A stretch of DNA of 64,000 nt from an uncultured Pelagibacteraceae bacterium (GCA_902599335.1 CACKFA010000005.1:39420-103419); one strand, 5' to 3'; positions 34,716-40,472 are shown, numbered from the stretch's first letter. Numbers and translations: made by a program. The notes: a model not told the origin generated them from the letters alone.

Positions 34716-36137
34716 ATGATAATACTGAATAAACTAAATTTAATAACAATAATATTTTTTGCTTTTTTAATAAAACTATTATTTGCTTACAATTATCCTG
34801 TAATTACTGGAGATTGGGCATCATATAACACAATAGCTAATAATATTATTAATGGCTGTGGAGTGTCATTAAGTCTTGATGGAGATCCATGTATAAAACA
34901 TTTTGGAGGTAATCAAGGACCTGGTTACCCTTTTTTTATATCTATAATTTATTCTCTTTTAGGAAAAAACACTTTTAATATTATTATAGTTCAAAATATA
35001 ATTTTAGCAATTTCTCAATTATATTTACTCAGTCAATTAAGAAAAAAAAAATTTAATGATAAATTTTTTATATTTTCAGCTTTAATAATCTGCTTCTCTC
35101 CATTGATTTTTGCTTGGTCCAGATTTTTATTAACTGAACCAATAATAATATCAGTTACTTACTTTTTAATGGGGTATTTAATAAATGGAAAAAGAAATAT
35201 TTTATTTATTGGTTTAATTTTGAGTATTGGTACTTACATCAGATTAGATTTTATTTTAATTAGTATTTTATTATTTTACTTAATATTAATTGAAAATAAA
35301 AACAAAAGTTTAATATTAAAAAAATTTATCCAAATTATTTTAATTGTTAGTGTTGCATGGTCCCCATGGTTGGCAAGAAATTATTATGCAGGAATAGATG
35401 TTTTTCCATCCGGATATCCTCAAAAAGATAATTTTTATTATCCAAGGGGATATATTAAATGGACATCAACATGGATCACAAATAGCTATCAGAGAGCTGG
35501 AGCATTAAATCATATAATGACTAATAAATATTCTAACATTAATTTAGGGAACAAATATTATTTTAAAAATAAAGAAGAAAAAAAAGTAATTGATGAACTT
35601 TTACAAAAATTAAAAGATTTCGATAATAAAAGCTTCCCGTTACAAATAGATGAAAAATTTAATAATATTGCTAAAGAATTTATTAAAAATAATAAAATTA
35701 ACTACTATATCCTCATACCCTCAAAGAGATTAGTAAATATAATATTTAATTTTACTAACAGTAATGGTTGGCCGATCGAATTTGGAAGCTCCTTTTCTCA
35801 AGAAGAAAGGGTTAAAATTAGTGAATTAAATATTTTTGAAAAAGCTTTATTTGCAATAAAAAATCTTAATAAAAAGATTTTTTATAAAATAACAATTAAT
35901 TCTTATAAGATATTTGTTTTGATAATATTTTTAGGACTTCTAATTTATAAACATAAAATTTCTATTAATAATTTATATGCAAGTATTTTTCTCTATTTTA
36001 TAACTAAATTAATCTTCATGATTATTTTTAATTATACAGAAATAAGATACTTAATAACCTGTTTTGCTCTTATAGATATCGCTATCATTTTAAAATTAGG
36101 AGATTTTTTTAAAAATAAAAATAAAATAAATTATTAA
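34716..36137 (+). CDS. Polytopic membrane glycosyltransferase (GT-C, ArnT/PMT-like)
   Basis: TM1 followed by a DWASY acidic loop, PGYPFF, LLTEP, many TM segments. Extremely A+T-rich. Confidence 0.65.
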   Translation: MIILNKLNLITIIFFAFLIKLLFAYNYPVITGDWASYNTIANNIINGCGVSLSLDGDPCIKHFGGNQGPGYPFFISIIYSLLGKNTFNIIIVQNIILAISQLYLLSQLRKKKFNDKFFIFSALIICFSPLIFAWSRFLLTEPIIISVTYFLMGYLINGKRNILFIGLILSIGTYIRLDFILISILLFYLILIENKNKSLILKKFIQIILIVSVAWSPWLARNYYAGIDVFPSGYPQKDNFYYPRGYIKWTSTWITNSYQRAGALNHIMTNKYSNINLGNKYYFKNKEEKKVIDELLQKLKDFDNKSFPLQIDEKFNNIAKEFIKNNKINYYILIPSKRLVNIIFNFTNSNGWPIEFGSSFSQEERVKISELNIFEKALFAIKNLNKKIFYKITINSYKIFVLIIFLGLLIYKHKISINNLYASIFLYFITKLIFMIIFNYTEIRYLITCFALIDIAIILKLGDFFKNKNKINY

Positions 36138-36144
36138 AATAAAA

Positions 36145-37170
36145 TCATTTAAATAAAAAAGAAAAAAACTTAAATATATAAAATATCTTCATACTCGGTT
36201 TTTTATCTGATCCAGTTTCAATCGTATTTATTTTATTTAAATTCTTATAATAATAGTTATATGAATCTAGTAAGATTTCTTTTGTTGAATTTTTAAATTT
36301 TAATTTAAGTTTTTTATTCACTTTGTCAGTGTTTAAAACAATATTTTTAGTTAGAAGTACCTTGTGGTAAAAATTAATATCCACTAAATTAAAAAAAATT
36401 AGAACATTCAATAAATATGAACCAATATAATTATTAATACTTATAATTTTTGAATTTGATTTAGATTTTTTTAATATATATTCAATATTTTCTCTAAAAG
36501 TATTTATATATTTTGCCCCAACGTTAAACAAATTTCTTTTTTTTAATTTTAAACATTTTTCAATAATGATCACTAATTCTTCTACAGATATAAAATGAAT
36601 TTTATGTTTTCCATTATCAATAAGTAATAGAGGCAGGTTGTTTCTAATTAACTCGAACAATATACCCATTCTATGACTTCTTGATTTGCCTACTACAACT
36701 GGAACTCTTAAAATTGTGAAATTGCTAATTTTTGATTTTTTTAATCTTTTTTCAATTGCAAATTTAGATTTTCCATAAAAATTTTTTGCACTCGGTATTT
36801 CATTTTCTTTAATGGATTTTGTATAATTTTTTTCATAAATAGAAAATGTTGAAGTAAAAATAAAATTTTTAATCTTATATTTTTCTGCCATAGATATAAG
36901 ATTTTGAGATGTTTTTAAATTAAAGTTATAAACATTATTATCATCATCAAATATTTCAGATGCTAAATGAATAATAGTATTGATTTCATTTTTTTTAAAA
37001 AAGTTTTCTAACTTGTCTATATCCAATAAATTGATTTTAAAAAATTTTGATTTATTTACGGAAGCATAATTTTTATCAATTAAAAATAAGTTGTGTTTTT
37101 TTTGTAATAATGCAACTAATTTTTTACCAATAAAACCAGACGAACCAGTTATTAAAATTTTTTGTTTCAT
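36145..37170 (-). CDS. NAD-dependent epimerase/dehydratase (extended SDR)
   Basis: TGSSGFIG, IHLAS, FTSTFSIY, YGKSK (YxxxK). Confidence 0.9.
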   Translation of the reverse strand: MKQKILITGSSGFIGKKLVALLQKKHNLFLIDKNYASVNKSKFFKINLLDIDKLENFFKKNEINTIIHLASEIFDDDNNVYNFNLKTSQNLISMAEKYKIKNFIFTSTFSIYEKNYTKSIKENEIPSAKNFYGKSKFAIEKRLKKSKISNFTILRVPVVVGKSRSHRMGILFELIRNNLPLLLIDNGKHKIHFISVEELVIIIEKCLKLKKRNLFNVGAKYINTFRENIEYILKKSKSNSKIISINNYIGSYLLNVLIFFNLVDINFYHKVLLTKNIVLNTDKVNKKLKLKFKNSTKEILLDSYNYYYKNLNKINTIETGSDKKPSMKIFYIFKFFSFLFK

Positions 37171-37265
37171 AGTTAAATTAGTATTAATAACAAAAAATTT
37201 GCAATAATTAATTTAAGTAATAAATATTTTTTTTGATAAAAAAATAATGTAAGATAAACACGTTG

Positions 37266-37278
37266 GTTTTCCAACTAT
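37266..37278 (+). repeat. 13-bp direct repeat, right copy, overlapping the probable ssrA -10 region (TATAAC 37276-37281)
   Basis: Identical to 34553-34565. Confidence 0.7.
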
Positions 37279-37287
37279 AACGATAAA

Positions 37288-37522
37288 TGAATTTCGTAAT
37301 AACCATTGCGGACGTGGGGGCAGTACCCACCACCTCCACCATTAAAAAATTATGGGGGTGAAATAGATTCGACGGGTGTCTAAAGGCTATTCTTTCGTTC
37401 GGGATTGTTCCACCGCAACGGGCTATTTTATAATTGCTAACGAAAGTTATGCACTTGCTGCCTAATTAACTAAGTTAATTAAGCAAACGGGGTTTGGGGC
37501 ACCTGGCAACAGAACGCCCCTT
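37288..37522 (+). ncRNA. ssrA: Permuted (two-piece) tmRNA; 5' boundary approximate
   Basis: Acceptor piece ends GTGGG-GGCAGTA-CCCAC-CACCTCC-ACCA (CCA at 37341). A 12-nt spacer precedes the coding piece, which starts GGGGGTG at 37354 (G3:U70 pair). Tag reading frame 37436-37465 encodes ANESYALAA*. Confidence 0.95.
37484..37522 (+). repeat. attL-like copy of the island direct repeat (ssrA 3' end)
   Basis: 37496-37522 is identical to 39752-39778 (27 bp); the match extends to 39 bp with 4 mismatches. Confidence 0.9.
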
Positions 37523-37578
37523 CTCATTATTAAAAAAGTTTTAATTTTCAACGTAGATTTAAATATACAACTTAGTTA

Positions 37579-37600
37579 GACGACTATAGGACGACTAGAG
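37579..37600 (+). repeat. Left arm-type repeats GACGACTA x2 (11-bp period)
   Basis: GACGACTATAGGACGACTAGAG. Confidence 0.7.
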
Positions 37601-37615
37601 ATTTAATTTTTAATT

Positions 37616-37816
37616 TTAAATTATATCGCAAGATTTTAGAATAATTGATCCAAATATTATAATTGGAACAATACCCCAAATTGCATCCATGTCTTTTTCT
37701 TTCTTTTTTTGTTTTGCAAGTTCAGAAACTGTAGGGTCAGGTTTTCCACAATGAGGACAAGCTTTGGCTGATCTTGAAACTTCTTTTCCACACTCTAAAC
37801 ATTTTGCTAAAGCCAT
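37616..37816 (-). CDS. Zinc-ribbon protein with C-terminal TM helix
   Basis: CLEC-x10-CPHC, basic linker, AIWGIVPIIIFGSIIL. Confidence 0.8.
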   Translation of the reverse strand: MALAKCLECGKEVSRSAKACPHCGKPDPTVSELAKQKKKEKDMDAIWGIVPIIIFGSIILKSCDII

Positions 37817-37820
37817 AAAA

Positions 37821-37934
37821 TTATTTCCTCATTAGAGATAATAGTAATATTAAAATTGGAATACAAATTATAAATGTTGCTGCATCAGGTGAAACACCGA
37901 GAATATCCGCCACTAAATCTCTTATTGCACTCAT
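37821..37934 (-). CDS. 37-aa single-TM microprotein (not in ORF track)
   Basis: MSAIRDLVADILGVSPDAATFIICIPILILLLSLMRK*. AAGGA lies upstream and the ORF exactly fills the gap (2 nt and 4 nt) between its neighbours. Confidence 0.7.
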   Translation of the reverse strand: MSAIRDLVADILGVSPDAATFIICIPILILLLSLMRK

Positions 37935-37936
37935 AT

Positions 37937-38479
37937 TTAATTTCCTTCCATACAATTTTTATATATTCTTTTTCCAATAGCAACTGTATCAGCGTTATCT
38001 TTACGTCTTAAACACTGTTTTCTTTTTTCAAAATAATTTAAAGGGTTTAAATCACTCAGCGCATCTCCAACAGAGTCCACAGCAGAACCAACGTTGTCTG
38101 ATAAGGAATTTTCATATGGCTTTTGATATTTACATTCATATCCCGCTGTCTTTCCGTAAGTATAAGCTGATGAATTACCAAATTTCCAAGTATATTCTTT
38201 ATATGGATTTACAAATGTACGTCCCAATCCAACACTAAAAACACTTTTAGATGATTTTTTTATTTTAATATCTGAAATTTTATCTCCATCAGAATCATTA
38301 ACGTATACTCTAGTAATTCTAACAAACTTAGAGCCATTATTTTTAAATTTAAAATTTAGAAGATTTGTTTTGTTATAATCTTTAGACCAGCTAAAATCGA
38401 TATCATTCTTACAACCTGCTTCAGCAATGTTATTAAATAGTAGAGTTATAAATAAAGTTACAAAAATATTTCTAATCAT
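37937..38479 (-). CDS. Secreted Cys-containing protein, family A (long form)
   Basis: Signal peptide ending AEA. The C-terminal 35-aa module is shared with 38771-39055. Confidence 0.85.
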   Translation of the reverse strand: MIRNIFVTLFITLLFNNIAEAGCKNDIDFSWSKDYNKTNLLNFKFKNNGSKFVRITRVYVNDSDGDKISDIKIKKSSKSVFSVGLGRTFVNPYKEYTWKFGNSSAYTYGKTAGYECKYQKPYENSLSDNVGSAVDSVGDALSDLNPLNYFEKRKQCLRRKDNADTVAIGKRIYKNCMEGN

Positions 38480-38482
38480 TTA

Positions 38483-38764
38483 TTAAGAAACCTTATCAAA
38501 ACATTTTTTGGCTAAAGGTCTTATTTCGTTTATCATATAATCATAGCCTTTATCAACCAAAGCATCTAATTGTTTATCAGTATATTTTCCATCAAACTCC
38601 TTCGCAACACAATTGCAATAGGCTTTAGCAAAACTTTTGGACTCACCATCATTTACTGAAGCAGTATAACAAGTTTGACGTTCATATAGCCTTCTCTTCT
38701 CACTTAACGCAAAAGCATTTCCAGCAAAAACTATTAGTATTAAAATTAATATTATTTTTCTCAT
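38483..38764 (-). CDS. Secreted 4-Cys protein, family B
   Basis: Signal peptide ending AFA; C-x17-CxC-x35-C; paralogue of 39055-39342. Confidence 0.85.
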   Translation of the reverse strand: MRKIILILILIVFAGNAFALSEKRRLYERQTCYTASVNDGESKSFAKAYCNCVAKEFDGKYTDKQLDALVDKGYDYMINEIRPLAKKCFDKVS

Positions 38765-38770
38765 TAAATA

Positions 38771-39055
38771 TTATCTGTATTGTTCCATGCATTGTTTATA
38801 AATTTGCTTACCTTGATATACCGTATCAGCTTGATCTCTATATCTTGAACATCTTTTACGTTTTTTAAAATAATCTGTTGGACTAAGATTGTAATCACTT
38901 GTTTTACACTTAATTTTAGTAAAAATTGATTTGTTACACCTTTCAGCCTCTTCCATTCGTAATTCTCGTAGAGTTTTTGCTTCACTACTTGAATAGAATG
39001 AGAAAATAAATGTAAATAATAATACAGATAATGAAACTTCCAATAATCTTTTCAT
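38771..39055 (-). CDS. Secreted 4-Cys protein, family A (short form)
   Basis: Signal peptide ending SEA; shared C-terminal module; TAATG coupling to the upstream gene. Confidence 0.85.
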   Translation of the reverse strand: MKRLLEVSLSVLLFTFIFSFYSSSEAKTLRELRMEEAERCNKSIFTKIKCKTSDYNLSPTDYFKKRKRCSRYRDQADTVYQGKQIYKQCMEQYR

Positions 39056-39342
39056 TAATCTCCTGGTGCTCTAGCATTTACATTACAATAATCTACAGCA
39101 AAGCTGAACATCTCATTTTGCTTCTGTTGACTCATCAAAGCAGCTCTTTCAAGTTGTGTAATAGTATATTTATCAGTAACCATTATCGTAACACATCTGC
39201 AGTATTGTTTGGCTCTTTTGCTACCAAGATGTTGTGAGGTTTCTAAGCATCCTTGGTAAATTTCATTTTGATATTCATTTAATGCAAAACCTATGTTGGG
39301 CCATATTAATATTAGGAATATTACAGATAATATTTTTTTCAT
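39055..39342 (-). CDS. Secreted 4-Cys protein, family B
   Basis: Signal peptide ending GFA; C-x15-CxC-x35-C; ATGA coupling to the upstream gene. Confidence 0.85.
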   Translation of the reverse strand: MKKILSVIFLILIWPNIGFALNEYQNEIYQGCLETSQHLGSKRAKQYCRCVTIMVTDKYTITQLERAALMSQQKQNEMFSFAVDYCNVNARAPGD

Positions 39343-39629
39343 TTAAATTGCTTAAGACCAAGTTCTGTATACGTTTCTCTGTATTCAGCACTACAATCTC
39401 CCCAAATTTGATCGTCTGTTCTGTCATTCCATGCTATTATCATACCATCAAAACAAGTTCCCATCACACTAACATTTGTTTTTCTCACATAACCAAGAAA
39501 AATATCATCTGTGCAATCTCCTAAAACTGAATTGCCCGAATCCATTTCCCAACCAATACATGGAACACCGCTCCAAGATGTATTAACTGAGAATAAACTT
39601 AAAAATAATATTGATAATATCTTTCTCAT
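39339..39629 (-). CDS. Secreted protein with three 20-aa GxC repeats
   Basis: Signal peptide followed by PCIGWEMDSGNSVLGDCTDD / IFLGYVRKTNVSVMGTCFDG / MIIAWNDRTDDQIWGDCSAE. Confidence 0.8.
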   Translation of the reverse strand: MRKILSILFLSLFSVNTSWSGVPCIGWEMDSGNSVLGDCTDDIFLGYVRKTNVSVMGTCFDGMIIAWNDRTDDQIWGDCSAEYRETYTELGLKQFK

Positions 39630-39659
39630 AATTCAAGATTATCAAATCCTTTAACACGT

Positions 39660-39700
39660 GACGACTCGATTTTTGGACGTCATTTGGACGACCAGAGACG
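39660..39700 (+). repeat. Right arm-type repeats GACG(A/T)C
   Basis: GACGAC 39660, GACGTC 39676, GACGAC 39687, GACG 39697. GGACGACCAGAG (39686-39697) vs GGACGACTAGAG (37589-37600). Confidence 0.7.
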
Positions 39701-39739
39701 TAAAATTTATATATTTATTGAAAAATAACTGGCTATAAT

Positions 39740-39778
39740 CAAACAAAGTTCGGGGCACCTGGCAACAGAACGCCCCTT
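39740..39778 (+). repeat. attR-like copy of the island direct repeat
   Basis: CAAACAAAGTTCGGGGCACCTGGCAACAGAACGCCCCTT, followed by further T residues. Confidence 0.9.
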
Positions 39779-39794
39779 TTACAAATTAAAAATT

Positions 39795-40472
39795 ATGAAA
39801 TTAATTAAAGAAATATTAAATATTATAATTACTTTTATTGAAAACAAAAAACTTTATGTAAATGATATTTGCTTTGAAAAAACAAGAAGCTATAGGATAA
39901 ATCAAATTTACAACTTTTTTTATATAAACAAAAACAAAATAAAACATTATAAAAAAGTTTCTAAGTATAACGAAAAATATAACAAAAAATTTAGTGATAG
40001 TATAAAACATGCAAAAAATGCTGAAGTATCACCATTGTTAAGATTAAACAAATTATTAAAATCTTTAGAAATTAAATATGAAAATTTTAATTTTTTAGAC
40101 ATTGGATCTGGACAAGGAATAGCATTACATTTTGTGATGAGAAACTATCATTTTAAGAATTATTATGGAGTAGAATTTAATGAATATTTGTGTGATATTT
40201 CAAAAAAAAATTTAGCCCCTTTAAATAAAAAATTTAAAATTATTCATAACGATGCGAAAAAATTTTTTCTCGATAATTATCGATATATTGTTTATCTCTA
40301 CAATCCATTTGATGAAATTATTTTAAATAAATTTTTAGAAAATAATTTAAATTTATTAAAAAAAAATGAATGTATAGTTATTTATCAAAATAATTTTCAT
40401 ACTAAAGATATTAAAAAACTTTGTAAAAGAGAAGTTTTCATTGAAGAAGGTTTGTCCGTATACTATTTTTAA
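39795..40472 (+). CDS. Class I SAM-dependent methyltransferase
   Basis: FLDIGSGQG, GVEFN, HNDA, YLYNPF. Very A+T-rich. Confidence 0.8.
   Translation: MKLIKEILNIIITFIENKKLYVNDICFEKTRSYRINQIYNFFYINKNKIKHYKKVSKYNEKYNKKFSDSIKHAKNAEVSPLLRLNKLLKSLEIKYENFNFLDIGSGQGIALHFVMRNYHFKNYYGVEFNEYLCDISKKNLAPLNKKFKIIHNDAKKFFLDNYRYIVYLYNPFDEIILNKFLENNLNLLKKNECIVIYQNNFHTKDIKKLCKREVFIEEGLSVYYF

What the first reader, a model, noticed from the sequence alone, without database searches (positions are those of the whole stretch)
37496..39778. Integrase-less 2.26-kb mini-island with apparently intact att ends carrying an operon of secreted micro-proteins (main candidate new system)
Seen: a perfect 27-bp direct repeat 2256 bp apart, arm-like repeats inside both ends, and seven tightly coupled minus-strand genes (ATGA/TAATG overlaps, gaps of 6 nt or less). 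Five encode signal-peptide, even-Cys proteins of 93-180 aa and two encode small membrane proteins. There is no integrase, replication or capsid gene. Inference: a non-autonomous cassette mobilised in trans by a phage or island integrase, whose whole payload acts in the periplasm or at the cell surface. Possible roles are phage receptor masking or superinfection exclusion, toxin-immunity pairs, or ligand decoys. I recognise no named family for the cargo.
Basis: partly seen in the sequence, partly recalled or inferred. Interest (0 to 1): 0.85.

Follow-up and report, generated by a model that had tools for sequence, protein, structure and literature searches.

The report
Integrase-less satellite cassette at tmRNA gene
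This 2.26-kb segment of a SAR11 (Pelagibacter) genome is a stripped-down copy, without its own integrase, of a known kind of small ocean mobile element that inserts at the end of the tmRNA gene; it carries seven tiny secreted or membrane proteins of unknown function.

Summary
A perfect 27-nt direct repeat (37496-37522, 39752-39778) brackets seven tightly coupled minus-strand genes, with GACGAC repeats inside both ends.

The left repeat is the 3' end of the permuted tmRNA gene ssrA, so this is an insertion at ssrA. It is one case of a SAR11-wide pattern:
- 36 of 87 same-genus genomes carry two or more copies of this ssrA end.
- Some genomes hold arrays of up to eight cassettes.
- Other genomes have an empty site.

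Each cassette has its own 7-9-nt motif repeated at both ends, like lambda attP arm sites. I found relatives that carry an integrase, at the same site and as free 4.6-6-kb circles. One free form (L333) has the window's arm pair directly before its integrase gene. The same ends enclose unrelated cargo elsewhere.

The "non-autonomous cassette served in trans" reading is therefore supported. "New system" is not: the parent elements match Pelagibacter phage satellites (VEIMEs) and resemble Prochlorococcus tycheposons. The cargo families are rare, under purifying selection and of unknown function.

The parts
37223..37524 (+). ssrA, the circularly permuted (two-piece) alphaproteobacterial tmRNA gene; its last 27 nt form the left att core
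   Evidence: Rfam RF01849, 223 bits, full model. ARAGORN places tmRNA* at 37247-37556 with tag ANESYALAA.
37496..37522 (+). attL core: the terminal hairpin of the tmRNA coding piece (GGGGC-N15-GCCCC, then TT)
   Evidence: Perfect 27-nt identity with 39752-39778. The same 21-nt core lies directly upstream of the integrase in the int+ elements and free attP forms sampled.
37523..37610 (+). P' arm (left end of the cassette) with two arm-type sites, GACGACT at 37579-37585 and 37590-37596, 11 nt apart
   Evidence: GACGACTATAGGACGACTAGA matches 21/22 the sequence just before the integrase start codon in free element L333. The same arm occurs in L105, L171, L326, L328 and L341-L343.
37616..37816 (-). 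ORF7, 66 aa: N-terminal CxxC-x10-CxxC zinc ribbon followed by a C-terminal TM helix
   Evidence: PF13240/PF13248. A Zn-ribbon protein also occurs in the GACGACT-type cassette L328.
37821..37934 (-). ORF6, a 37-aa single-TM peptide (MSAIRDLVADILGVSPDAATFIICIPILILLLSLMRK)
   Evidence: Conserved directly after ORF5 homologues, or last before the left arm, in L066-L069 and L341-L343. Codon differences split into 11-13 synonymous and 8-10 non-synonymous of 37.
37937..38479 (-). ORF5, 180 aa: secreted, beta-sandwich N-domain, linker, and a C-terminal two-Cys helical hairpin (family A)
   Evidence: Twelve homologues at 40-81% identity, several of them partial. Only 37 representatives among 1.84 billion proteins, about 24 of which hit only residues 133-180. 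Model pLDDT 70, no PDB match below E=1e-3. dN/dS 0.22-0.42.
38483..38764 (-). ORF4, 93 aa: secreted, 4 Cys (family B, paralogue of ORF2)
   Evidence: tblastn of ORF4 hits ORF2-type genes, and a 40%-identical homologue lies in L342.
38771..39055 (-). ORF3, 94 aa: secreted, carries the same C-terminal two-Cys module as ORF5 (family A)
   Evidence: The C-terminal 35 aa match ORF5 homologues at 59-61%. 4 Cys.
39055..39342 (-). ORF2, 95 aa: secreted, 4 Cys (family B)
   Evidence: 90.5% identical homologue in L066 with dN/dS 0.17. 87% identical in L341.
39339..39629 (-). ORF1, 96 aa: secreted, three ~20-aa G-x-C repeats, acidic
   Evidence: Four metagenomic homologues at 79-94% identity. Model pLDDT 75, six strands and one helix, no PDB or BFVD match.
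39630..39751 (+). P arm (right end of the cassette): arm-type sites GACGAC at 39660, GACGTC at 39676 and GACGAC at 39687, then a conserved ~50-nt module ending ...GGCTATAATCAAACAAAGTTCGG
   Evidence: The module is 79-89% identical to the right ends of L035, L105 and L171, and aligns with the P arm of free attP forms L333 and L322.
39752..39778 (+). attR core: the second copy of the ssrA 3' end, followed by TTTT
   Evidence: The upstream bases (CAAAGTTCG) are of the element type, not the tmRNA type (CGGGGTTTG).

Best explanation
The segment is an integrase-less, non-replicating derivative of a family of small Pelagibacter integrative elements. These elements carry a lambda-type tyrosine integrase with arm sites, plus a primase or Prim-Pol, and exist as free 4.6-6-kb circles. 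They are best equated with the Pelagibacter-associated VEIME phage satellites.

**Shown**
- The ends are the ssrA 3' end.
- The arm-site architecture is shared with members that carry an integrase.
- Relatives have empty sites and tandem arrays.
- The same vehicle carries different cargo in other cells.
- The cargo is under purifying selection.

**Inferred: how it arrived.** An ancestral element recombined its attP with the terminal hairpin of the tmRNA coding piece (attB). This rebuilt an intact ssrA at attL and displaced a copy of the ssrA end to attR. The integrase and replication genes were then lost. Intermediates with a truncated integrase exist.

**Inferred: whether it can still move.** Both cores are identical and all five arm-type sites are kept, so the cassette should still be a substrate for a cognate integrase supplied in trans by an incoming or co-resident element. 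That would allow excision as a 2,256-bp circle and re-insertion at ssrA or its copies.

**Speculative: what the payload does.** It is a translationally coupled operon of four-Cys periplasmic proteins (families A and B, and ORF1), a 37-aa membrane peptide and a Zn-ribbon membrane protein. I take these to be envelope accessory proteins, most plausibly altering phage adsorption or entry (superinfection-exclusion-like).
For: **Site**
- The left repeat is the ssrA 3' end.
- These are the only two copies in the genome.

**Arm sites**
- Five GACG[AT]C sites lie at the ends only, P about 1.6e-13.
- Other cassettes have their own motif matched at both ends: GACCGCA, ACTCGTC, GTACGGGAT, GATCGCA, CGTCGCA, GGTCGTA, GGACGCA.

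**Relatives with an integrase at the same site**
- G176/L062: 13,968 bp with an integrase, a primase-like protein, HNH and a secreted trypsin-like protease.
- L071, L072 and L338/L339.

**Free attP forms**
- L333 has GACGACTATAGGACGACTAGA directly before its integrase gene.
- L322 has ACTCGTC arms on both sides, matching the integrase-less cassette L035.
- L334 is a 4,601-bp unit repeated 2.01 times at 99.98% identity.
- About ten ~6-kb contigs from different samples have shifted start points.

**Decay intermediate and abundance**
- L063 keeps only an integrase remnant, MASIKKMNGKFINHRSL*.
- The integrase family has 1,348 clusters at E<=1e-30, nearly all from ocean metagenomes.

**Variable occupancy**
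- Empty sites in L039 and L047; arrays of up to 8.

**Cargo turnover in the same vehicle**
- L105 carries a protease and L171 an HNH-like protein.
- L341-L343 carry reshuffled ORF1/2/4/5/6 homologues.

**Selection**
- dN/dS 0.17-0.42.

**Literature**
- PMC9618062 describes Pelagibacter VEIME modules with the same gene set, and reports that about 20% of VEIMEs lack an integrase.
Against:
- The own genome (92.6% complete) has no cognate integrase, only one divergent Xer-like recombinase.
- The P arm of L333 (GAGTCGAC-type sites, 30-nt longer spacer) differs from the window's P arm. An integrase matched to both arms of this exact attP lineage has not been found.
- No copy with an integrase and GACGACT arms occurs among 401 SAR11 genomes.
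- IMG/VR holds no close integrase homologue (best 32% identity) and no attP with this core. The link to virions therefore rests on the literature, not on my data.
- The cargo has no domain, defence-model or fold match, so the proposed function is a guess.
Confidence: 0.7

Rival explanations
1. Inert fossil. The origin is the same (site-specific insertion of a satellite-type element at ssrA, then loss of the integrase), but the cassette no longer moves. Under this view the arrays are a sediment of past insertions, and the cargo is simply domesticated flexible-genome content.
For: - No integrase in the genome.
- Copies with an integrase are rare in reference genomes: 3 loci in 185,579 species genomes for close relatives of the G176 integrase.
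- In genera g2 and g5 the left and right arms of many cassettes no longer match, which points to decay or internal deletions.
- L328 has a degenerate left core.
- Recent SAR11 population studies see recurrent positions and little sign of recent mobile-element traffic (10.64898/2026.10.07.757358).
Against: - In this copy both 27-nt cores are identical and all five arm sites are intact, with none in the interior.
- The ends are 85-89% identical to those of cassettes with unrelated cargo from other samples, so the vehicle turns over faster than it decays.
- L341 shows a junction of right end, core, left end of the same type, as expected of a circle or a fresh tandem.
- Integrases of the family are abundant in ocean metagenomes.
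Confidence: 0.25
2. Homologous-recombination replacement island. Under this view the cassette is exchanged between cells by recombination in conserved flanks (ssrA on one side, ppdK on the other). The repeats would then be passengers, not active sites.
For: - SAR11 recombines heavily, and its flexible genes sit at conserved slots (PMC11796062 and 10.64898/2026.10.07.757358).
- The regions on both sides of the cassette are also strain-variable: genes between thyX and ssrA, and the 225-aa methyltransferase found in no other of 150 genus genomes.
Against: This does not explain several observations:
- the exact duplication of the ssrA end;
- arm motifs that are cassette-specific and matched at both ends;
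- the same ends at a second locus downstream of pnp;
- free attP forms with the same architecture.

Recombination may still act on top of site-specific insertion.
Confidence: 0.1
3. A genuinely new, integron-like or Xer-driven capture system. Under this view the host's single conserved Xer-like recombinase, or an unknown enzyme, shuffles cassettes at copies of the tmRNA end, with no dedicated integrase.
For: - The 20 array-bearing genomes examined in detail, and most of the 301 sampled, have only the one ~325-aa recombinase, far from the arrays.
- Arrays are directional and cassettes are small, like integron cassettes.
Against: - Dedicated integrases of one family sit directly behind the same core and the same arm motifs.
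- The diversity of arm motifs fits many integrase N-domains, not a single host enzyme.
- The integrases score far below the integron-integrase cut-off: 42.6 bits against 265.
- No attC-like palindromes are present; the boundaries are copies of ssrA.
Confidence: 0.03

Closest known systems
VEIMEs, virion-encapsidated integrative mobile elements (marine phage satellites; Eppley et al. 2022, PMC9618062), Pelagibacter-associated modules 2, 6 and 8
   Same: - Host (Pelagibacter).
- Small size.
- Tyrosine integrase and primase/helicase.
- HNH plus periplasmic serine protease (module 2; compare L062 and L105) or TerS (module 6; compare L322).
- Head-to-tail concatemers or circles (compare L334).
- No capsid genes.
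- A fraction without an integrase.
   Different: - The window element has none of the hallmark genes, only the att ends and cargo.
- The paper does not describe the ssrA target, the arm sites or the cassette arrays ('tmRNA' and 'attP' occur 0 times).
- I did not compare sequences with the VEIME data set, so the equation rests on gene content and host.
Tycheposons of Prochlorococcus (Hackl et al., bioRxiv 10.1101/2020.12.28.424599)
   Same: - Integration at tRNA genes and the tmRNA gene.
- Successive insertions that push older elements outwards.
- Elements separated by partial copies of the RNA gene.
- Degenerated remnants that build genomic islands in a streamlined ocean bacterium.
- Both cargo-carrying and satellite-like forms.
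   Different: - Different host and a different integrase lineage (relatedness not tested).
- Here the remnants keep complete, cassette-specific arm-site sets and are very small (0.25-3.6 kb).
CIMEs (cis-mobilisable elements) and integrase-less ssrA islands such as those of Dehalococcoides (from my own knowledge: Pavlovic 2004, Bellanger 2014, McMurdie 2011)
   Same: attL and attR are retained without recombination genes. The element derives by deletion from an autonomous element. A related element's integrase can mobilise it. Such elements accrete in tandem at ssrA.
   Different: - CIMEs derive from conjugative elements, and Dehalococcoides uses a serine recombinase.
- Here the parent is a satellite- or plasmid-like circle with a tyrosine integrase.
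- Trans-mobilisation is not demonstrated.
Phage lambda attP (from my own knowledge: Landy 1989)
   Same: A core flanked by a P arm and a P' arm, with several arm-type sites about one helical turn apart. These are read by the integrase N-terminal domain. The integrase gene lies next to attP.
   Different: - The reconstituted attP is about 210-260 bp, with 3+2 sites.
- The arm motif varies greatly between otherwise similar elements.
- No Xis or IHF sites were identified.
Integrons and CALINs
   Same: Directional arrays of small, mostly promoter-poor cassettes at one platform, with cargo turnover and no recombinase inside the cassettes.
   Different: There is no attC, attI or IntI. The boundaries are copies of the tmRNA end plus double-stranded arm sites.

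Membership tests
tRNA/tmRNA-targeting tyrosine-integrase integrative elements (Pelagibacter VEIME-type / tycheposon-like) | Element bounded by a direct repeat of the 3' end of the target RNA gene, with the gene kept intact | tested here: met
   27-nt repeat. The left copy is the end of ssrA, and the full Rfam model matches.
tRNA/tmRNA-targeting tyrosine-integrase integrative elements (Pelagibacter VEIME-type / tycheposon-like) | Own tyrosine integrase next to attL | tested here: not met
   No PF00589 or PHROG integrase in the seven ORFs. The genome has only one Xer-like recombinase, on another contig. The element is therefore a derivative, not an autonomous member.
tRNA/tmRNA-targeting tyrosine-integrase integrative elements (Pelagibacter VEIME-type / tycheposon-like) | Same attP architecture (core, P and P' arm-type sites) as members that carry an integrase | tested here: met
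   The alignment of reconstituted attP with free forms L333 and L322 shows the same layout. The P' arm matches L333 at 21/22. The P arm has the same layout but different site sequence and spacer length.
tRNA/tmRNA-targeting tyrosine-integrase integrative elements (Pelagibacter VEIME-type / tycheposon-like) | Replication module (primase/helicase or Prim-Pol) | tested here: not met
   Absent from the window cassette. Present in L062, L303-L312, L332 and L334.
tRNA/tmRNA-targeting tyrosine-integrase integrative elements (Pelagibacter VEIME-type / tycheposon-like) | Variable occupancy: empty site and other elements at the same site in relatives | tested here: met
   Empty sites in L039 and L047. 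One to eight cassettes elsewhere. 36 of 87 same-genus genomes have two or more cores.
VEIME (phage satellite) | DNA found as concatemers inside virions; dependence on a helper phage | not testable with these tools
   Only indirect evidence: contig L334 holds 2.01 head-to-tail units. IMG/VR has no close relative.
CIME-like cis-mobilisable element | Intact attL and attR, no recombination or transfer genes, and a cognate element with an integrase and the same att | tested here: met
   Identical cores and five arm sites. No mobility genes. The cognate P' arm lies before the integrase in L333. A full two-arm match is shown for the sister type, L035 against L322/L071.
CIME-like cis-mobilisable element | Excision or integration when the integrase is supplied in trans | not testable with these tools
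This needs an experiment.
Integron / CALIN | attC recombination sites and an IntI-type integrase | tested here: not met
   The boundaries are copies of the ssrA end. The associated integrases score 42.6 bits against a cut-off of 265 for integron integrase. No attC covariance model was run.
IMEX (Xer-exploiting element) | dif-like 28-bp site recombined by the host XerC/D | not tested
   A host Xer-like recombinase exists. No dif comparison was made. Dedicated integrases make this reading unnecessary.
Decayed pelagiphage prophage | Remnants of phage structural or replication genes; a known pelagiphage att site | tested here: not met
   PHROGs hits only for the generic Zn-ribbon. Known temperate pelagiphages use tRNA-Cys, tRNA-Leu and tRNA-Arg (10.1101/410191). 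IMG/VR hits to the core are complete phage tmRNA genes.

The most novel reading that the evidence does not exclude
The integrase-less cassettes may be more than debris. They could form a working gene-cassette economy in SAR11 that is served in trans.
- The hypervariable arm motifs would act as address codes, tying each cassette lineage to one lineage of free 4.6-6-kb integrase circles.
- Cassettes would be excised, exchanged and stacked at ssrA and at a second site behind pnp.
- This would make the system a functional analogue of an integron in a bacterium reputed to lack mobile elements.

Within this picture, the recurrent payload would be a new envelope module that blocks helper or competing pelagiphages. 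That payload is the family A and B four-Cys periplasmic proteins plus the 37-aa membrane peptide.
Probability: 0.15. Interest if true: 0.7.

Novelty: new member of a known kind. Interest (0 to 1): 0.4.

Why it matters
[quoted passage not shown] How its flexible genes move is therefore unresolved.

This locus gives a concrete, sequence-level handle on one route:
- a defined attB, the terminal hairpin of the permuted tmRNA, with a second site after pnp;
- a readable attP grammar with cassette-specific arm sites;
- an abundant integrase family on free circles;
- a population of integrase-less cassettes that swap small envelope proteins, proteases and nucleases.

It links island content in SAR11 genomes to the satellite-like elements seen in virus-particle fractions. 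It also supplies testable pairs of integrase and att site.

The cargo proteins are rare families with no detectable relatives outside a handful of ocean sequences. They are candidates for phage-host interface functions.

Tried and rejected
1. **Core in IMG/VR.** The search gave 8 hits, all complete phage-encoded two-piece tmRNA genes and none an attP. This gives no support for a pelagiphage attP.
2. **Arm pattern in metagenomes.** GACGACTNNNGGACGACT was too loose. 
3. **Close relative with an empty site.** A search using the downstream methyltransferase found only AT-rich noise. The gene is unique to this genome among 150 genus members.
4. **Cognate integrase in reference genomes.** Among 401 SAR11 genomes there is no copy with an integrase and GACGACT arms.
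5. **Cargo function.**
   - Pfam, PHROGs, PADLOC and NCBIfam gave nothing beyond the Zn-ribbon.
   - The AlphaFold models of ORF5 and ORF1 have no PDB or BFVD match below E=1e-3. The ApaG/DUF1425-like beta-sandwich resemblance of ORF5 (TM about 0.3) is generic, and I reject it as a lead.
6. **Promoter and terminator scan.** No better than shuffles in this AT-rich DNA.
8. **Other readings.** Xer/IMEX and integron readings were considered and rejected; see the rival explanations.
9. **dN/dS for ORF6.** The first calculation was unreliable. It was replaced by direct codon counts.


Full report
**Observation**

The repeat is real. GGGGCACCTGGCAACAGAACGCCCCTT lies at 37496-37522 and again at 39752-39778. 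The 25-nt core has two matches in the window and none in 100 shuffles. These are the only two copies in the 1.27-Mb genome, even allowing six mismatches.

ARAGORN and Rfam place the circularly permuted alphaproteobacterial tmRNA gene at 37223/37247-37524/37556 (tag ANESYALAA; RF01849, 223 bits, full-length). The left repeat is therefore the terminal hairpin of the tmRNA coding piece, and the right repeat is a second copy of that end.

Seven minus-strand ORFs fill the interval. They overlap by ATGA or TAATG, or are 2-6 nt apart.
- The five larger products each have four Cys and a hydrophobic N-terminus.
- ORF6 is a 37-aa single-TM peptide.
- ORF7 is a zinc ribbon plus a TM helix.

The arm-like repeats are highly non-random. 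GACG[AT]C occurs 70 times in the whole genome on both strands. Five copies sit on the + strand within the 262 nt of the two ends (37579, 37590; 39660, 39676, 39687), and none lies in the 1,969-nt interior. The Poisson P is about 1.6e-13.

**A SAR11-wide pattern**

- In a sample of 301 genomes of the family, 252 carry the 21-nt core.
- By my hand count of that table, 36 of 87 same-genus genomes have two or more copies.
- Genomes of two other genera reach seven or eight copies.

In 20 fetched loci the copies start at ssrA and run downstream on the same strand. They delimit 1-8 cassettes of 0.25-3.6 kb, whose genes lie mostly on the strand opposite to ssrA. Most encode small proteins with a signal peptide or lipoprotein-like N-terminus. 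Empty sites exist: L047 and L039 have a single core followed directly by conserved chromosomal genes.

The same core also bounds cassettes at other loci, notably downstream of pnp (L041, L046, L326).

**Arm-site grammar**

Each cassette has its own 7-9-nt motif. The motif is repeated twice at the left end and two or three times at the right end, in one orientation, 11-16 nt apart:

| Cassette | Motif |
|---|---|
| window | GACGACT |
| L034 | GACCGCA |
| L035 | ACTCGTC |
| L037 | GTACGGGAT |
| L038 | GATCGCA |
| L042 | CGTCGCA |
| L045 | GGTCGTA |
| L048 | GGACGCA |

Joining the right end, the core and the left end of a cassette gives a site of roughly 210-260 bp with 3+2 arm sites. This is the layout of a lambda-type attP (comparison from my own knowledge). 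In genera g2 and g5 the two ends of a cassette often no longer match, which indicates later deletions or reshuffling.

**Where the recombinase is**

It is not in the cassettes and not in these genomes. The own genome and the 20 array-bearing genomes each have just one ~325-aa tyrosine recombinase, far from the arrays. It is a divergent Xer-like protein.

Screening 301 genomes for PF00589 and cross-checking against core positions found G176 (Ca. Pelagibacter nBUS_49). There a 13,968-bp element lies between two cores at ssrA, in this order:
- the core;
- three GACGTT arm sites;
- a 334-aa integrase (phrog_1, 1.6e-53);
- a primase-like 511-aa protein;
- secreted proteins, including a trypsin-like protease;
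- an HNH endonuclease;
- a winged-helix regulator.

Two further genomes have homologous integrases (54% and 62% identity) in the same position behind ssrA.
- L071 has ACTCGTC arms, the motif of the integrase-less cassette L035.
- L072 has GGCGTCA arms, the motif of the 10.9-kb element L063. In L063 only an integrase remnant survives, MASIKKMNGKFINHRSL*.

This remnant is a direct intermediate between elements with and without an integrase.

**Abundance and free forms**

A profile of the three integrases finds 1,348 protein clusters at E<=1e-30. The best 120 are 53-98% identical, and almost all come from ocean metagenomes. IMG/VR holds nothing closer than 32%.

Contigs encoding these integrases show the following.
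- **P0088.** About ten contigs of 5,980-6,388 bp from different samples share one gene order but start at different points. The core lies 68 nt before the integrase gene, with element DNA rather than ssrA upstream of it. A 693-aa DUF5906 primase-helicase gene is split across the contig ends such that 552 + 1,526 nt equals its length. I infer a circle of about 6.06 kb.
- **P0044.** Contig L334 holds 2.01 head-to-tail copies of a 4,601-bp unit at 99.98% identity. The unit is integrase, 88 aa, 55 aa, Prim-Pol and 252 aa, with GGCGTCA arms.
- **P0018 / L322.** A free attP with ACTCGTC-type sites on both arms and a TerS-like gene.
- **P0051.** The element sits directly after the pnp terminator, so the pnp site is a true second attB.
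- **P0096.** An element at ssrA that carries a 1,113-aa Mrr/DEAD helicase.
- **P0047 / L333.** A free attP whose P' arm reads GACGACTATAGGACGACTAGAAAGAGATAATTGTT-ATG. It matches window 37579-37600 at 21/22 and lies directly before the integrase start codon.

The P arm of L333 has the same layout as the window's, but GAGTCGAC-type sites and a 30-nt longer spacer. The match to the window lineage is therefore half proven. For the sister type (L035 against L322/L071) both arms match.

**Same vehicle, different cargo**

Two metagenome contigs carry the window's ends at ssrA (GACGACT arms, ends 85-89% identical) with unrelated cargo:
- L105 carries a 514-aa trypsin-like protease fusion, in 1,774 bp.
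- L171 carries a 382-aa HNH-like protein plus a 64-aa membrane protein, in 1,570 bp.

Other contigs with the same left arm carry reshuffled members of the window's gene families:
- L341: ORF1 (79%), ORF2 (87%), a 150-aa protein and ORF6.
- L342/L343: an ORF4-like gene, a 137-aa protein, ORF5 (72%) and ORF6.

In L341 the left arm is preceded by the core and a right-end module of the same type. That junction is expected of a circle or a tandem duplicate, and the contig is too short to decide.

The module ORF2-ORF5-ORF6 also occurs away from ssrA, next to a T5orf172 protein in another SAR11 genome (L066). ORF5-ORF6 also occurs in a cassette with other arms (L067).

The refuting condition "cargo fixed in all relatives with no empty site" is therefore not met.

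**Cargo**

No Pfam, PHROG, PADLOC or NCBIfam family fits, except the generic zinc ribbon of ORF7.

- **ORF5.** It has only 37 representatives among 1.84 billion proteins. About 24 of them match only the C-terminal two-Cys helical hairpin (residues 133-180). This module always sits at the C-terminus of otherwise unrelated small proteins, ORF3 among them.
- **Models.** ORF5 (pLDDT 70) is a beta-sandwich, a disordered linker and a helical hairpin. ORF1 (pLDDT 75) is six strands and one helix. Neither has a significant PDB or BFVD neighbour.
- **Selection.** dN/dS is 0.17 for ORF2 and 0.22-0.42 for ORF5. ORF6 keeps its sequence with 11-13 synonymous against 8-10 non-synonymous codon changes.

These are real, selected genes, not decaying pseudogenes. 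Their role is unknown. They have periplasmic or membrane character and travel on satellite-derived vehicles alongside proteases and nucleases. On that basis my best guess is an envelope function at the phage-host interface. I give that about one chance in three.

**Comparison with what is known**

- Eppley et al. (PMC9618062) describe marine phage satellites (VEIMEs) found as concatemers in virions. Modules 2, 6 and 8 are mostly in Pelagibacter. They carry tyrosine integrases and primase/helicases, and either HNH plus a periplasmic serine protease or a small terminase. About 20% lack an integrase. The elements with an integrase found here fit that description, but the paper does not mention tmRNA or attP.
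- Hackl et al. (10.1101/2020.12.28.424599) describe the same accretion logic for tycheposons in Prochlorococcus: insertion at tRNA genes and the tmRNA gene, tandem elements separated by partial tRNA copies, and remnants.
- Molina-Pardines et al. (PMC11796062) note one SAR11 island next to a tmRNA and "no canonical mobile genetic elements".
- Known temperate pelagiphages use tRNA-Cys, tRNA-Leu and tRNA-Arg.
I reproduced its core claim independently here.

**Verdict**

The "trans-served, non-autonomous cassette" reading is well supported as to origin and architecture, but unproven as to present activity. The "new system" claim is not supported.

The locus is a new, integrase-less member of a known kind, with novel cargo families.

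Three details appear not to be spelled out in the papers I could read:
- the attB in the terminal hairpin of a permuted tmRNA;
- the second site behind pnp;
- the cassette-specific arm motifs shared with free circles that carry an integrase.

Noticed in passing
window 34716-37170: A 473-aa GT39-like membrane protein and a 341-aa NAD-dependent epimerase lie between thyX and ssrA. In several relatives thyX abuts ssrA directly; others carry different membrane or epimerase genes there. The upstream side of ssrA is thus a second variable slot.
   Followed up: partly
window 39795-40472: A 225-aa SAM-methyltransferase-like gene lies between the cassette and ppdK. It has no DNA homologue in 150 other genomes of the genus. 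Other cells have a TauE-like gene (L105) or nothing (L063) at this place.
   Followed up: partly
L043 (G170:C1:211000-226000): Two complete, identical-tag ssrA genes lie 3.3 kb apart. They flank a glycosyltransferase and radical-SAM cassette, so an element here seems to carry a whole tmRNA gene rather than only its end.
   Followed up: no
L313-L321, L041, L046, L326: A second attachment site for the same integrase family lies just after the pnp terminator, or after a 63-65-aa gene that follows pnp. It is occupied by elements with an integrase and by integrase-less cassettes. The full core is present at attL, although empty genomes such as G000 have no such sequence there. How that happens is unexplained.
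   Followed up: partly
L334, L335, L337: A 4,601-bp unit (integrase, 88 aa, 55 aa, Prim-Pol 528 aa, 252 aa) is assembled as more than one head-to-tail copy. One such contig sits in a MAG labelled Hyphomonas (GCA_002692925.1), which is probably a binning error.
   Followed up: partly
L048-L053 (genera g2 and g5 arrays): A recurrent secreted protein family (...ADDIRDFQIEGMSIGDSLL...) fills many cassettes, often two paralogues per cassette. After the left arm lies a conserved ~30-nt block (gaaaagaaattttagtgtgcgggggaatt) that may be the remnant of the integrase 5' end.
   Followed up: no
L040, L051 (9039-9305), L052 (11074-11356): A 68-85-aa secreted protein gene (…GSCPMMAKNLDAKIAEAQELRDAGMKAHDDG…) on the + strand is always followed at once by a tmRNA-like core. 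That core has the tmRNA-type upstream bases (GGGGTnnGG) rather than the usual element-type right end.
   Followed up: no
L054-L061 (IMG/VR): Eight viral contigs carry complete two-piece tmRNA genes (tag ADENLALAA) whose 3' hairpin is identical to the SAR11 core. This agrees with reports of tmRNA genes in pelagimyophages and Melnitz-like phages.
   Followed up: partly
L066 (GCA_902523425.1, 4737-7943): The ORF2-ORF5-ORF6 module sits beside a 402-aa T5orf172/MUG113 protein and a SHOCT protein, with no tmRNA core nearby. This is a different kind of island context for the same cargo.
   Followed up: no
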